In this document: positions 24,284 to 31,672 of the stretch, in pieces
Position numbering within the stretch: the stretch's first letter is position 1
How the letters are laid out: each line of letters starts with the position of its first letter
From: an uncultured Sulfuricella sp.
GTDB lineage: Bacteria > Pseudomonadota > Gammaproteobacteria > Burkholderiales > Sulfuricellaceae
NCBI GenBank assembly: GCA_964451375.1
Contig: CAYVIN010000031.1
Coordinates: forward strand, 1-43,597
DNA: 43,597 nucleotides
Direction of reading: 5' to 3'
The notes under the pieces: model-generated
The model's input: only the letters and a program-made list of their open reading frames with translations
Databases searched by the model: none
Told to the model about the DNA's origin: nothing
Translations under genes and position numbers: made by a program

Positions 24284-27200
24284 TCATGCGGTTTCCCAAT
24301 AGCCTGCGCCCGCGACCAGTTGCAGCGGGCCATTCCAAACGGCGGCGCTAAAAAACGCTGCGCCGGCTGCGGGCTGGATGGTTTTGATGCCGCGTTCGGC
24401 GAATTGCTGGTTGACGGCGTCGGAAGCCATCCCCAGTCCGGCCCACGGCCCCCAGTTGATGGTGCTGACCGACACGCCCGGCCAGCGCGCGGCAAAAGCC
24501 TTGCCGGCGAAATTCAGGGCTTCGTTGGCAAGCGCATAGTCGCTTTGCCCGAGGTTGCCGATACTCCCCGCCACCGAGCCGAAAAACACCATTTTGCGCA
24601 GCTTCGCGGTTTCCAGGTGTGCGCCGAGCGCGAGCACCGGATAAAGTTTGGTATCGATCACCCGCCGCCAGCTTTCCGGTTTTTTGTCGATGAGGCGTTT
24701 GTCCTCGATGATACCTGCGCCATGCACCACGCAATCCGGCGCGCCGTTTTGCTGTTGGGCGGCGTGAATGGCGGCGGCCACGGCGCTGCGGTCAAGGGCG
24801 TCGGCGGCAAACACCGTGACGGTGCTGCCGGCTTCGCGCAATTTGGCCAGCGCGGCGCGCGCAGCGCGGTCGCGGAACACGCTGCGCGCGTGGCGTTCGA
24901 TGTCGCGCGCCTGGGGCGCTTGCCCCTCCTGCGCCAGGGCGGCGGCAAAATAGGCGCGCAGGCCGTTCATGTCGGGAATCGCGGCGCTTGCCGGGTCTTC
25001 CTGCAAGGCCGGTTCGCCGCGCGCGATGATGCTAATCGCGGTTTGCGGCCCGGCCAGGGAAAGCAGGCAATGCGCGGTAATCCCGCGAATCCCGCCTATC
25101 GCCAGGATATGGCGAAACGCCTCACCCGGTTCGACGGGGGCCGACTCCCAGGCCGCCAGGCGCATGAGCTTGCGCTCGCCATCCAGCCAGGACACGGTTT
25201 CCTGGTCGGTCGCGGCGTGTAATTCGGCGACGATGGTTTGCGCGGCAAGGGCGGTGTCCCATTCCACCGGCAGGTCGGCAATCCGCACGGTTGCGCCGGG
25301 ATGCTCGATATGCAGGCAGCGCAACATCCCCGCCACGCCGCCACCGAGCGCCTGCAGCAGCGCACTTTCGCCTTCCGGCGCACCGTTTTGGCCGGGCGCG
25401 CCGCCTGTGGCGGTCACCGTCAACCAGCGCAGCCAGGAAACCGGCTCCGTCCAGCGCGGCGCACAATGCTGGGCAACCGGCAGCACCGCATGGAGCGCCG
25501 CCTGCATCCAGGCTTCGCTGTCGAGCGCCGAGTGGCCGGGACGGCGCGTCGGGGAGAGTTGCAACACCGCATCCACCGCCCCGTTCGCCAGGAACTTGTC
25601 CACTTCGCCGGCCCGGCAGGCCAGCGCCCAGGGCAGCACCACCGGGTTGACGCCGAGGTCGCGCAAGTGCGTGATCACCGCGTGGGTGAGCGCCGGGTCG
25701 CCTTCCGCAACCAGCACCCGCTTACCCGCCAGGGGACTGGTGAGCGGCAGAGGCGACAATGGGGCGGGTTCAAAAACCACCGTATAGCCGGGACAGGAAT
25801 CATCGTATTGCGGCGGCGTCTCAGGTTCGTCCGCCGCCACAGCGGCGGGCGGGAGTGACGTCACCAGCGGCGCGGCAGGCGGCGCATCGTCCAGCAGGCC
25901 CGCCAGTATCGCGTCGATATCCTGCAAACGTTTGGCCCGCGCCAGCGCGTCGGGACGGCTGCGCAAACGTTCGGCAAACTGGGCGGGAAGGTTGCGGACA
26001 ATCAATTCGGCGATTTCCACCCGTTTGATCGAGTCGATGCCGAGGTCGGCTTCCATGTCCTGGTTGGCCCCCAGCAGTTGCGCCGGATAACCGGTGAGTT
26101 CGGAAACCACCCGGCGCACCACATCGCCCAGTTCCGCTGCGCTGAGGGTGGCCGGCGCGGCGCTGGCGGGGGCGGGTACAGCCGCCACACCACCGGAGAC
26201 CGCGCTGAGGATGTCGGTGATCTGGTCGAGGGTTTTGGCCCTGGACAATTCACCGCTGCGCCCGGCGAGTTGGGCGAATTGGCCGGGCGGCAGACGGCGC
26301 TGGATTTCTTCGACGATTTCGACGCGTTTGATCGAGTCGATGCCGAGTTCGGATTCCAGATCGTGTTTGGGTGACAACACACTTTCCGGGTACCCCGAAC
26401 AACTCGCCACCACCTCGCGCACCAGCGCCGCAAGCGCGGCGCGATCCAGCACGGGGGCGGCAGCCGGGGCCGGCGCGGGAATCGCTGCGGGTGTTGCCGC
26501 AAGCGGCGGCGCAGCAACCTGCGGGACGCTGACCGCAACCGGCATAGACGGCATCAGCGACGCCGCGCAAATCGCGCCGGATGCAGGCGCTGCGCCGAGG
26601 GCCGCCATCAGAATGCGTTCCTGACTGCTCAGGAAAACCCGCATGGTGTCCTGAAAATCAGCCACCAGCCGCACCATGTCGGTGGCGGGTGGGGCGGCTG
26701 GCGCAGCCGTATCGGCGGGTTGCGGAGTGCGCCCGGCTTCTTCACGCATTTTCTGAGCCTCTTCAAAATCCAGTTGGGGCTTGACGCCCGATTCGCCAAG
26801 CGGCGATTGTTCGTCCACCGGGCGGGCGTCCTGCCCGCCCACCCACCAGGCGGTGGCGGGAATCTGCGGGGCAGGCTGCTCCAGCAGACCTTCCAGCGAG
26901 GAGACATACCAGCTTTCGGGCAGCAGGTTTTCCCACGCCACGTCTTCGCCGGCCAGCCACAACTGCCCAAGTACGCCAAGCAGGCCGCCCATTTCCGGGG
27001 TTTCGTCGAGGGCCAGCGCGGTGACGCCGCGATCCGGCAGAATTTTGCCGACCAGCCGGGTCAGCACTGCGCCGGGGCCGACTTCCACGAAACAGCGCGC
27101 GCCGGCGGCGTAGAGATTTTCGATCTGGGCGACGAATTCCACCGCCGCAGTCATATGCGCCTGCAAACGCCGGTTGGCTTCCTGCGCATCGGCGGGATAG

Positions 27201-31672: not shown

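What the first reader, a model, noticed from the sequence alone, without database searches (positions are those of the whole stretch)
24284..31672. PfaD-type enoyl reductase fused to the N-terminus of a PfaA-like KS-AT-2xACP-KR, preceded by a degenerate NMO-like segment
In canonical pfa loci the trans-acting ER (PfaD) is a separate protein. Here the YPIVQGPMT..RECGGHVGP ER domain is contiguous with the KS in one 2.46-kaa ORF. The about 330 residues before the ER contain a GAEAGG-like remnant (AGYILVGAEAGGIAG, with the catalytic His replaced), which suggests an ancient internal ER duplication. The PfaA-like part lacks the usual C-terminal DH.
Basis: partly seen in the sequence, partly recalled or inferred. 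Interest (0 to 1): 0.7.

Follow-up and report, generated by a model that had tools for sequence, protein, structure and literature searches.

The report
Duplicated enoyl reductase on a fatty-acid megasynthase
This is a real 2,462-residue lipid-building enzyme of a known, widespread type (ArsA-like, "fused pfaDA"). Its front end is an ancient tandem duplicate, an inactive-looking copy followed by a working copy of a FabK-type enoyl reductase, and I could not find that duplication described in the papers I could search.

Summary
One uninterrupted minus-strand ORF (31672 to 24284, 2462 aa) encodes N-domain, ER, KS, AT, 2 ACP and KR, with no DH.

The frame is real. An independent assembly at 93% nucleotide identity has the same start and frame. 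In 74 of 76 large homologous ORFs from many phyla, the N-domain precedes the ER in one ORF with the ketosynthase; the other two are cut by a contig end.

Residues 1-330 are a full-length diverged paralogue of the ER:
- Profile comparison: hhalign 96% probability, E 1e-9.
- It lacks the FMN-contacting Met motif, the catalytic His (Ile137 here) and the GT phosphate loop.
- It is still under purifying selection (dN/dS 0.19, against 0.065 for the ER).

- The ER is FabK-type, not PfaD-type.
- The ER-KS fusion is not unusual. It is the norm for a published family ("fused pfaDA", Shulse-Allen Types M-P), which includes the ars-type cluster of Beijerinckia.

My best reading is an ArsA-like iterative type I fatty-acid synthase subunit whose pseudo-ER packs against the active ER. 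This packing is inferred from pTM 0.93, not shown. The partner protein supplies AT, DH and PPTase.

Interest is modest. This is a new member of a known kind with an apparently undescribed family-wide pseudo-ER.

The parts
24284..31672 (-). Complete ORF of 2462 codons plus stop: pseudo-ER, ER, KS, AT, ACP, ACP, KR. It is an ArsA-like ('fused pfaDA') type I synthase subunit.
   Evidence: An independent assembly, L089, has the same frame and start.
30683..31672 (-). Pseudo-ER (residues 1-330). This is a diverged paralogue of the ER with the FabK/NMO fold, barrel plus lid. It keeps GxExGG (131-136) and GG.G (167-170). It lacks the motif I Met, the catalytic His (Ile137) and the GT loop.
29603..30682 (-). 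Active-looking FabK-type FMN enoyl reductase (residues 331-690). It has GPM 344-346, RECGGH 468-473 (His473), GG 508-509 and GT 538-539.
   Evidence: Pfam NMO. TIGR03151 E 2.7e-17. PDB sequence hits to FabK/NMO. Foldseek TM 0.87-0.89 to FabK. dN/dS 0.065.
28415..29593 (-). Ketosynthase (residues 694-1086). DSACASS at 881, EAHGTGT at 1017, GHIKTAAG at 1058.
27047..27919 (-). Acyltransferase (residues 1252-1542). GHSYGE at 1352, GAFHS at 1453.
26228..26440 (-). ACP 1 (about residues 1745-1815). LGIDS motif, Ser1780.
25925..26137 (-). ACP 2 (about residues 1846-1916). LGIDS motif, Ser1881.
24440..24955 (-). Ketoreductase catalytic subdomain (residues 2240-2411). GGIRGITA at 2193, YALAN at 2379. 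The protein ends 51 residues later with no DH.
13827..17603 (-). Partner subunit of 1258 aa: an unmatched N-terminus (about 1-190), a KS-AT linker plus PfaB-like AT (about 200-640), a PKS-type DH (about 700-1000) and a PPTase (1066-1202, 'LSISH'). In relatives this protein carries a full KS at its N-terminus. Here it does not.
17606..24258 (-). GT_PLOD-like glycosyltransferase (23401-24258), TolC-type OEP (21860-23326), HlyD-type adaptor (20715-21830) and AcrB-type RND pump (17606-20692). These lie between the two synthase genes. They are a candidate tailoring and export module and are not conserved in the family.
   Evidence: L089 diverges from the window at 24186.
3016..8436 (-). Additional type I PKS of 1806 aa: PfaB-like AT, ACP, KS, AT, DH, ACP. 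It is a possible acceptor of the fatty acyl chain.

Best explanation
The ORF is a genuine subunit of an ArsA-like iterative type I fatty-acid/polyketide synthase, a 'secondary lipid synthase' of the fused-pfaDA kind.

Its N-terminal 690 residues are a tandem pair that arose by an ancient duplication of a FabK-type FMN enoyl reductase. The second copy (331-690) keeps every cofactor and catalytic motif and does the enoyl reduction. The first copy (1-330) keeps the whole fold but has lost the FMN-contacting Met motif, the catalytic His and one phosphate loop. I therefore read it as a non-catalytic pseudo-ER.

Free TIM-barrel ERs work as dimers. My reading is that the pseudo-ER packs against the active ER as a built-in partner, an intramolecular pseudo-dimer, so that one ER can sit in cis at the front of the KS.

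KS, AT, the two ACPs and KR on this protein, together with DH and PPTase on the 1258-aa partner, supply every activity needed for repeated C2 extension with full reduction. The expected product is a long, largely saturated acyl chain held on the ACPs. In this locus the chain is probably handed on (PfaB-like ATs, extra PKS module), glycosylated and exported by the adjacent RND/TolC system.

Shown: the frame, the domain order, the homology and fold of both halves, which motifs are kept or lost, purifying selection, family-wide conservation, and FabK-type rather than PfaD-type.

Inferred: that the pseudo-ER is inactive, the pseudo-dimer packing, the chain length and saturation, and the glycolipid/export fate.
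For: Frame and domains.

Independent assembly with the same start and frame.

Family conservation:
- At least 592 loci.
- N-domain followed by ER in 74 of 76 large ORFs.
- The N-domain match always lies at the N-terminus of 2000-3100-aa proteins.

Duplication:
- hhalign 96.4%, E 1.3e-9, end to end.
- Reciprocal HMM cross-hits.

Motif loss in the N-domain, mapped column by column against the published roles of motif I Met, motif III His and the GG/GT phosphate loops (PMC13311796).

Selection: dN/dS 0.19 for the pseudo-ER, 0.065 for the ER, 0.055 for the KS.

Rigid didomain: AF2 on residues 1-690 gives pLDDT 92.4 and pTM 0.93. That pTM cannot be reached if the two halves are placed freely.

ER dimerisation as the norm, and an ERb/ERc heterodimer in which one partner depends on the other: PMC13311796.

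FabK-type.

ArsA-like:
- Collinear 37%/26% identity to the Beijerinckia Type P synthase, which sits next to two type III PKS genes and a DH-PPTase protein.
- A partner homologue lies downstream in 77 of 82 loci.
- The fused pfaDA plus pfaBC-PPTase arrangement has been described in print.
Against: - No coordinates could be inspected. The pseudo-dimer geometry rests only on pTM and was not compared with the FabK dimer interface.
- The pseudo-ER keeps the GxExGG and GG.G glycine loops, which bind FMN phosphate in real ERs, so residual ligand binding is not excluded.
- No biochemical data exist for this protein or any close relative. The nearest homologue outside its own lineage is only 48% identical.
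- The product is unknown.
- The GT/RND genes are not conserved family neighbours, and a 93%-identical strain has different DNA right after the gene. Their link to the synthase is therefore weak.
- The partner here lacks the KS that relatives have, so the system may work differently or be impaired.
Confidence: 0.7

Rival explanations
1. The N-domain is not a dead copy. It is a second working flavin- or nucleotide-binding domain with its own chemistry, for example a second reductase or a FabX-like dehydrogenase/isomerase that sets chain features.
For: - Strong family-wide conservation of GxExGG, G139, F144, GG.G, G184, E196, R226 and G284-Q285.
- Purifying selection, dN/dS 0.19.
- FabX is among the structural neighbours.
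Against: - It lacks the motif I Met, the catalytic His (Trp or Arg in most relatives, Ile here), H445, HD 511-512, GT 538-539, H576 and H665. All of these are invariant or at least 98% conserved in the true ER.
- The window's copy has also lost residues that are 84-98% conserved in other N-domains (E196Q, L146Q, L193A, K130V).
- Selection is about three times more relaxed than on the ER.
Confidence: 0.15
2. The N-domain is mainly a docking platform for the partner subunit or the ACPs, not a partner for the ER.
For: - It sits at the extreme N-terminus.
- Conserved surface-type residues could serve any interface.
- The two-gene core is tightly coupled in relatives.
Against: - The high pTM of the isolated didomain already implies an extensive ER contact.
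- In at least one relative the N-domain and ER may travel together as a separate 655-aa gene, split from the KS (L083). A sequencing frameshift in that long-read assembly is not excluded.
Confidence: 0.1
3. It is a canonical PUFA synthase in which PfaD has been fused to PfaA, and it makes polyunsaturated fatty acids.
For: The best NCBIfam hit for the KS-AT part is PfaA TIGR02813 (828 bits). It also has tandem ACPs.
Against: - The PfaA score is below the 1010-bit cutoff.
- The ER is FabK-type, with no PfaD-family hit.
- There is no KS-CLF pair and no FabA-type DH/isomerase anywhere in the window.
- There are only 2 ACPs.
- The PPTase carries the hShxH motif of Types M-T, not the PUFA-type motif.
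Confidence: 0.03
4. The fusion is an assembly or frameshift artefact that joins a separate ER gene to the KS gene.
For: None found. Some long-read MAG relatives do show fragmented genes.
Against: - The ORF is continuous.
- An independent assembly has the same frame, and its indels are only in-frame.
- The same architecture is seen in 74 of 76 large ORFs, including complete isolate genomes.
Confidence: 0.01

Closest known systems
ArsA/ArsD-type type I fatty acid synthase (Shulse & Allen Type P; Azotobacter vinelandii arsABCD, Beijerinckia indica pBIND02)
   Same: - The window protein is collinear with the Beijerinckia Type P synthase: pseudo-ER, ER, KS, AT, ACP, KR at 37% (residues 128-1618) and 26% (1704-2437) identity.
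- The window partner's DH-PPTase part matches the 629-aa PPTase protein of that cluster.
- ArsA is reported to make C22-C26 saturated acids that stay on its ACP (PMC6274091, PMC3098273).
   Different: - There are no type III PKS genes in the window.
- The partner carries an extra PfaB-like AT.
- A GT, an RND/TolC set and a further type I PKS module are present instead.
- A. vinelandii ArsA itself was not examined here. The link runs through the Beijerinckia cluster that the literature places in the same type.
'Fused pfaDA + pfaBC(-PPTase)' secondary lipid synthases (Types M-O; Renibacterium, Chryseobacterium, Aquimarina, Flavobacterium, Ottowia)
   Same: - The same two-protein logic and the same PPTase fusion, as described in PMC13291983.
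- Chryseobacterium, Rhodobacteraceae and Sorangium loci recovered here have the same big ORF with a partner immediately downstream.
- Ottowia is reported to lack the KS-CLF pair, as this window does.
   Different: - In most relatives the partner begins with a full KS. Here that KS is absent.
- Four unrelated genes separate the two synthase genes here.
- No relative exceeds 48% identity over the ER region.
FabK (enoyl-ACP reductase II) / NMO superfamily
   Same: Both halves have the FabK fold. The ER half keeps motif I (GPM), motif III (xE.GGH) and the GG and GT phosphate loops.
   Different: - It is not a FabK orthologue (63 bits against a 453-bit cutoff).
- It is embedded in a megasynthase.
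- It is present as a tandem pair, one of which lacks the catalytic residues.
PfaD and PfaA of canonical PUFA synthases
   Same: A TIM-barrel FMN ER serves a KS-AT-ACPn-KR protein. The KS-AT part is most similar to PfaA.
   Different: - The ER is not of the PfaD clade.
- It is in cis rather than a separate protein.
- There is no KS-CLF and no FabA-type DH.
- There are only two ACPs.
Schizochytrium ERb/ERc heterodimer (PMC13311796)
   Same: Two paralogous TIM-barrel ER domains arose by duplication and pair with each other. One (ERb) depends on the other for folding and FMN binding.
   Different: - There, both copies keep the catalytic His and lie on different polypeptides of the PfaD clade.
- Here the copies are in tandem on one chain, are of FabK type, and one has lost the catalytic motifs.
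Heterocyst glycolipid pathway (HglE-type synthase plus glycosyltransferase plus DevBCA/TolC export). This is a functional analogy only, partly from my own knowledge.
   Same: A Pfa-like synthase making a long alkyl chain (PMC3098273), with a glycosyltransferase and a TolC-dependent exporter nearby.
   Different: Different synthase type (Type F, no cis ER of this kind), a different GT family and a different pump class. The link here is by gene adjacency only.

Membership tests
NMO/FabK-type TIM-barrel FMN oxidoreductase superfamily (Pfam PF03060), ER half, residues 331-690 | Pfam score above the gathering threshold, and the barrel-plus-lid fold | tested here: met
   PF03060 scores 38.3 bits against a cutoff of 28. 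Foldseek to FabK gives E 3e-20 and TM 0.87-0.89.
NMO/FabK-type superfamily, ER half | Motif I Met, motif III xEAGGH with the catalytic His, and the GG and GT phosphate loops | tested here: met
   GPM 344-346, RECGGH 468-473, GG 508-509 and GT 538-539, invariant or at least 90% conserved across 111 relatives. The roles of the motifs are taken from PMC13311796.
NMO/FabK-type superfamily, N-domain, residues 1-330 | The barrel-plus-lid fold, and homology to the ER | tested here: met
NMO/FabK-type superfamily, N-domain | Catalytic His of motif III and the FMN-contacting Met of motif I | tested here: not met
   The His position is Ile137 in the window (Trp 39% and Arg 33% in relatives). There is no GPM equivalent. 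GT is replaced by DD.
FabK equivalog (NCBIfam TIGR03151) | Score above the curated cutoff | tested here: not met
   63 bits against a cutoff of 453. It is FabK-like, not a FabK orthologue.
PfaD family | A match to the PfaD-family profile, closest fold PfaD, and an ADSGGH-type motif III | tested here: not met
   No PfaD-family hit in NCBIfam at E<=0.01. PfaD structures rank 43-45 with TM 0.46-0.50. Motif III is RECGGH.
PfaA (NCBIfam TIGR02813) | Score above the curated cutoff | tested here: not met
   828 bits against a cutoff of 1010.
PfaA | KS-AT-ACPn-KR domain order with tandem ACPs | tested here: met
   However, there are only 2 ACPs, against 4-6 in canonical PfaA (PMC3098273).
Canonical PUFA synthase system | A KS-CLF pair and FabA-type DH/isomerase domains in the cluster | tested here: not met
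   The only KS domains in the window are in this ORF and in the 1806-aa PKS. The only DH hits are PKS-type PS-DH.
ArsA-like / fused-pfaDA secondary lipid synthases (Types M-P) | ER N-terminal to KS-AT-ACP-KR in one polypeptide | tested here: met
   The description is in PMC13291983.
ArsA-like / fused-pfaDA secondary lipid synthases | A partner protein carrying DH and a fused PPTase with the hShxH (P1b') motif | tested here: met
   The 1258-aa protein has PS-DH at E 1.2e-7, ACPS/4PPT_N and 'LSISH'. The motif definition is in PMC3098273.
ArsA-like / fused-pfaDA secondary lipid synthases | Collinear homology to a literature-assigned member | tested here: met
   Beijerinckia indica ATCC 9039 Type P synthase, 37% and 26% identity over the whole length.
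ars (alkylresorcinol) clusters specifically | Type III PKS genes between the synthase and the PPTase genes | tested here: not met
   tblastn with both Beijerinckia type III PKSs finds nothing in the window.
ArsA-like synthases | Product is a C22-C26 saturated acyl chain retained on the ACP | not testable with these tools
   Needs expression and lipid analysis.

The most novel reading that the evidence does not exclude
Every ArsA-like or fused-pfaDA synthase carries a so far undescribed pseudo-ER/ER tandem. The dead copy acts as an obligatory in-cis dimer partner for a FabK-type reductase. This would be how a normally homodimeric trans-acting ER was built into the N-terminus of a megasynthase. 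The window's own cluster (KS-less partner, GT, RND/TolC, extra PKS module) would make a new exported glycolipid in a Sulfuricella-like chemolithoautotroph.
Probability: 0.4. Interest if true: 0.5.

Novelty: new member of a known kind. Interest (0 to 1): 0.38.

Why it matters
The ER-KS fusion itself is ordinary for this family and should not be flagged as unusual.

What is worth keeping is that the roughly 300 unannotated residues at the front of hundreds of these synthases are a conserved, selected but catalytically stripped duplicate of the ER. These synthases include the ars-type cluster behind Azotobacter cyst lipids.

This gives a concrete, testable picture of how a dimeric TIM-barrel reductase is accommodated in cis. 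The question is current, given the 2026 ERb/ERc heterodimer structure.

It also corrects domain annotation. Pfam finds only part of one NMO domain, and these proteins are named 'nitronate monooxygenase' or 'SDR oxidoreductase' in databases.

The locus also shows a diverged, probably horizontally acquired secondary-lipid cluster in a sulfur-oxidising betaproteobacterial lineage. Its product is unknown.

Tried and rejected
- Plain BLASTP of residues 1-330 against 331-690 gave only the GAEAGG/GRECGGH stretch at E 0.33. A PDB sequence search saw only the ER half. At single-sequence level the duplication is therefore not demonstrable and needed profiles and models.
- An exact look-up of the window protein in the contig index failed. 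The protein later turned up as P0121, on a contig of 43,597 bp, which equals the window length.
- The metagenome scan gave only two distant loci at 38-41% identity. The genome scan gave no relative above 48%.
- The afdb50 fold library was unavailable, so I could not retrieve named AlphaFold entries with both domains.
- The primary ArsA papers (Miyanaga 2008, Funa 2006) are not held. The ArsA link therefore rests on the Beijerinckia Type P cluster.
- Literature searches for a tandem, pseudo or duplicated ER in these synthases found nothing relevant. Absence from this library is not proof that it is undescribed.
- I considered a conserved glycolipid module. The window's own GT, OEP, HlyD and RND proteins have homologues in only 0-2 of 82 loci, although unrelated GT genes do sit near several homologous clusters.
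- A megablast of the flank against plasmids matched only an IS1182 transposase and one short unannotated stretch.
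Full report
**Observation**

The window carries one uninterrupted ORF on the minus strand. It runs from ATG 31672, with GAGGGGGG 7 nt upstream, to a stop at 24284-24286, which is 2462 codons.

Pfam places NMO at 429-620, KS at 694-1086, AT at 1252-1542, two PP-binding domains (GIDS at 1777 and 1878) and KR at 2240-2411. There is nothing after the KR. The quoted motifs are at residues 131-136 (GAEAGG), 339-347 (YPIVQGPMT) and 467-473 (GRECGGH). KS (DSACASS, EAHGTGT, GHIKTAAG), AT (GHSYGE), both ACP serines and KR (GGIRGITA, YALAN) all look intact.

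**Is the frame real?**

The window is a complete 43,597-bp NCBI contig, and its protein is in the public collection as P0121.

Its only cluster mate, P0264, comes from an independent Logan assembly (SRR22216449, locus L089). L089 aligns at 92.9% nucleotide identity over window 24186-37080 and starts at the same ATG. Its product differs from the window protein only by substitutions and 11 in-frame gap columns, all in linkers.

A scan of one genome per GTDB species found at least 592 loci that encode a relative. In the 80 loci kept, the ORF holding the ECGG motif is typically 1900-3200 aa, with the motif usually about 430-545 residues from the start of the stop-to-stop ORF. An HMM of the N-domain hits ahead of the ER in 74 of 76 ORFs of at least 1500 aa. 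The two exceptions are cut by a contig start. The fusion is not an artefact.

**The N-terminal 330 residues**

Single-sequence methods do not see homology. BLASTP between the two halves gives E 0.33, and a PDB sequence search hits only residues 335-640.

The family alignment is clear, however. Relatives share '...DGLIAKGHEAGGxVGEE..F.LLQ...PV.V.GGIG.HTAAAC.AAGAAGVVLD.QL.L.RESPL' in this region.

- Profile comparison. hhalign of the N-domain profile (104 sequences) against the ER profile (111 sequences) gives 96.4% probability, E 1.3e-9, with 283 columns aligned end to end, including the lid.
- HMM cross-hits. In the Beijerinckia and Streptomyces proteins, the N-domain HMM also hits the ER region (E 1e-5 and 2e-9), and the ER HMM hits the N-domain region (9e-7 and 7e-6).

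**What the N-domain has kept and lost**

I mapped columns through the hhalign alignment and read them against the published roles of the motifs (PMC13311796).

- The ER half keeps motif I (GPM 344-346), motif III with the catalytic His (RECGGH, His473), and the FMN-phosphate loops GG 508-509 and GT 538-539. These are invariant or at least 90% conserved in the family.
- The N-domain keeps GxExGG (131-136), G139, F144, GG.G (167-170), G184, R226 and G284.
- The N-domain lacks the Met motif, the His (Ile137 here; Trp 39% and Arg 33% in relatives), H445, HD 511-512, GT (DD here), H576 and H665.

The N-domain evolves faster than the ER. Family pairwise identity is 38% against 58%, and window-to-family identity is 28% against 50%. 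It is nevertheless under purifying selection. Nei-Gojobori dN/dS between the window and L089 is 0.19 for the N-domain. The other values are 0.065 for the ER, 0.055 for the KS and 0.22-0.25 for linker regions.

I read this as a catalytically dead but structurally needed pseudo-ER.

**Why keep it?**

TIM-barrel ERs of FAS, PKS and PUFA systems are reported to act as dimers. In Schizochytrium the duplicated ERb and ERc form a heterodimer, and ERb depends on ERc for folding and for FMN binding (PMC13311796).

The AF2 model of residues 1-690 has pLDDT 92.4 and pTM 0.93. A two-domain chain cannot reach that pTM unless the relative placement of the halves is confidently predicted. I therefore propose that the pseudo-ER is a built-in partner that forms an intramolecular pseudo-dimer with the active ER.

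This step is an inference. I could not inspect coordinates or compare the interface with that of FabK.

A possible stand-alone pseudo-ER/ER gene (655 aa), followed 14 nt later by a KS-AT-ACP-KR gene, occurs in one relative (L083). That would fit the pair behaving as a unit. A frameshift in that long-read assembly is not excluded.

**Type of ER**

The ER is not PfaD-type.

- NCBIfam gives only FabK TIGR03151 (E 2.7e-17, far below its cutoff) and no PfaD-family hit.
- The model superposes on FabK at TM 0.87-0.89 with 21-24% identity. PfaD reaches TM 0.46-0.50 with 13-15% identity, and trans-AT PKS ERs reach about 0.6.
- Motif III has the Glu of FabK/NMO, not the Asp-Ser of PfaD/ERb/ERc.

**What family is this?**

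[quoted passage not shown] It links them to the uncharacterised Renibacterium cluster, and it describes an Ottowia cluster with fused pfaD-pfaA and a pfaBC that lacks KS-CLF (PMC13291983). Shulse and Allen's Types M-T are set apart by KS phylogeny and by a PPTase hShxH motif (PMC3098273). The window's PPTase reads LSISH.

Genera assigned to those types were recovered here with the same big ORF, for example Chryseobacterium, Rhodobacteraceae and Sorangium.

A plasmid search then hit Beijerinckia indica ATCC 9039 pBIND02. The literature lists that strain's cluster with Azotobacter vinelandii as Type P, the ars phenolic-lipid type. The cluster consists of a 2674-aa type I PKS, two KAS-III-like (type III PKS) genes, a 629-aa PPTase-superfamily protein, a glycosyltransferase and an ABC transporter.

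- Its synthase has the N-domain (residues 4-313, E 2e-70) followed by the ER (314-668).
- It is collinear with the window protein: 37% over 128-1618 and 26% over 1704-2437.
- The window partner's residues 703-1217 match the PPTase protein.

The window protein is therefore ArsA-like, and the pseudo-ER/ER tandem is family-wide. A. vinelandii ArsA itself was not examined, because the primary papers are not held.

**The system in this window**

All genes from 31672 down to 3016 lie on the minus strand.

The 1258-aa protein (13827-17603) has three recognisable parts: a KS-AT linker plus AT (about 200-640), a PKS-type DH (PS-DH E 1.2e-7) and a PPTase. A homologue lies downstream of the big gene in 77 of 82 loci, usually directly abutting it. 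Together the two proteins supply KS, AT, ACP, KR, DH, ER and PPTase, which is a complete reducing cycle.

Three things differ from the family norm:

- The partner lacks the roughly 460-aa KS that relatives carry at its N-terminus. Its first 190 or so residues match nothing, and the only other KS in the window is in the 1806-aa PKS.
- A GT_PLOD-like glycosyltransferase, a TolC-type OEP, a HlyD adaptor and an AcrB-type RND pump sit between the two synthase genes. They are not conserved neighbours (0-2 of 82 loci). The 93%-identical L089 diverges from the window 98 nt after the big gene's stop, where it carries a different 455-aa lipoprotein-like ORF.
- A further PKS (3016-8436) reads AT-ACP-KS-AT-DH-ACP. 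Its N-terminal AT is most similar to the partner's PfaB-like AT (33% over 408 aa, E 5e-26).

Glycosyltransferase genes recur near homologous clusters in Beijerinckia, Streptomyces and a Caldilineaceae MAG. A glycosylated, exported long-chain lipid is a reasonable guess for the product, but only a guess.

**Host and origin**

The flanking phosphoribulokinase is 90% identical to that of a Sulfuricella sp. MAG and about 70% identical to those of Sulfurimicrobium and Nitrosospira. The synthase region has GC 0.60-0.69 against 0.57 in the flank. An IS1182-family transposase lies at 39079-40446. No relative of the synthase exceeds 48% identity in either the genome or the metagenome collection. This pattern fits a horizontally acquired island.

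**Verdict**

The gene is a new, divergent member of a known kind. The family-wide pseudo-ER is the one point that I could not find described. It yields a testable structural hypothesis, which gives the finding modest interest.

Noticed in passing
window 17034-17603 (-), residues 1-190 of the 1258-aa partner protein: Relatives have a full ketosynthase of about 460 aa at this position. The window has about 190 residues with no detectable homology, starting directly after the RND gene's stop. The KS may have been lost when the GT/RND genes arrived, or the true start may lie further downstream.
   Followed up: partly
window 17606-24258 (-); junction at 24186: A GT_PLOD-like glycosyltransferase, a TolC-like OEP, a HlyD adaptor and an AcrB-type RND pump lie between the two synthase genes. 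They are not conserved in the family. A 93%-identical strain (L089) diverges exactly here and carries a 455-aa lipoprotein-like ORF (LSGC lipobox) instead.
   Followed up: partly
window 3016-8436 (-): A further type I PKS of 1806 aa: AT, ACP, KS, AT, DH, ACP, with no KR or TE. Its N-terminal AT is a paralogue of the partner's PfaB-like AT (33% identity, E 5e-26). It may take over the fatty acyl chain.
   Followed up: partly
window 9321-13325 (-): An ABC-type ATPase protein (544 aa), a Band7/SPFH protein (517 aa) and a DUF697 protein (292 aa) lie between the partner gene and the extra PKS, on the same strand. Their role is unknown.
   Followed up: no
window 3000-31700 versus 32000-43597: GC is 0.60-0.69 across the synthase region and about 0.57 in the flank. 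An IS1182-family transposase lies at 39079-40446. The flank's phosphoribulokinase is 90% identical to that of a Sulfuricella sp. MAG. The cluster looks like an acquired island in a Sulfuricella-like betaproteobacterium.
   Followed up: partly
window 33847-34314 (-); L089 2766-3517: A barnase-type ribonuclease gene. In the close relative L089 it is followed by a barstar-family gene, so this is a likely toxin/inhibitor pair upstream of the synthase.
   Followed up: no
L083 9001-16183: A 655-aa pseudo-ER/ER protein is encoded separately, 14 nt ahead of a KS-AT-ACP-KR gene, and is followed by a lone KS gene and an AT-ACP-DH-PPTase gene. It may be a natural split form, or a frameshift in a long-read assembly.
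   Followed up: no
L087 (Beijerinckia pBIND02) 26206-29077; L088 (Streptomyces) 23734-25029; L002 7071-9950 and 18547-20979: Glycosyltransferase genes, plus an ABC transporter in Beijerinckia, recur next to homologous synthase clusters in unrelated phyla. This hints that many of these secondary lipids are glycosylated.
   Followed up: no
database annotations of relatives: Relatives are variously named 'nitronate monooxygenase', 'SDR family oxidoreductase' or 'beta-ketoacyl synthase N-terminal-like domain-containing protein'. Pfam NMO covers only part of one of the two ER-like domains, so the pseudo-ER is not annotated.
   Followed up: yes
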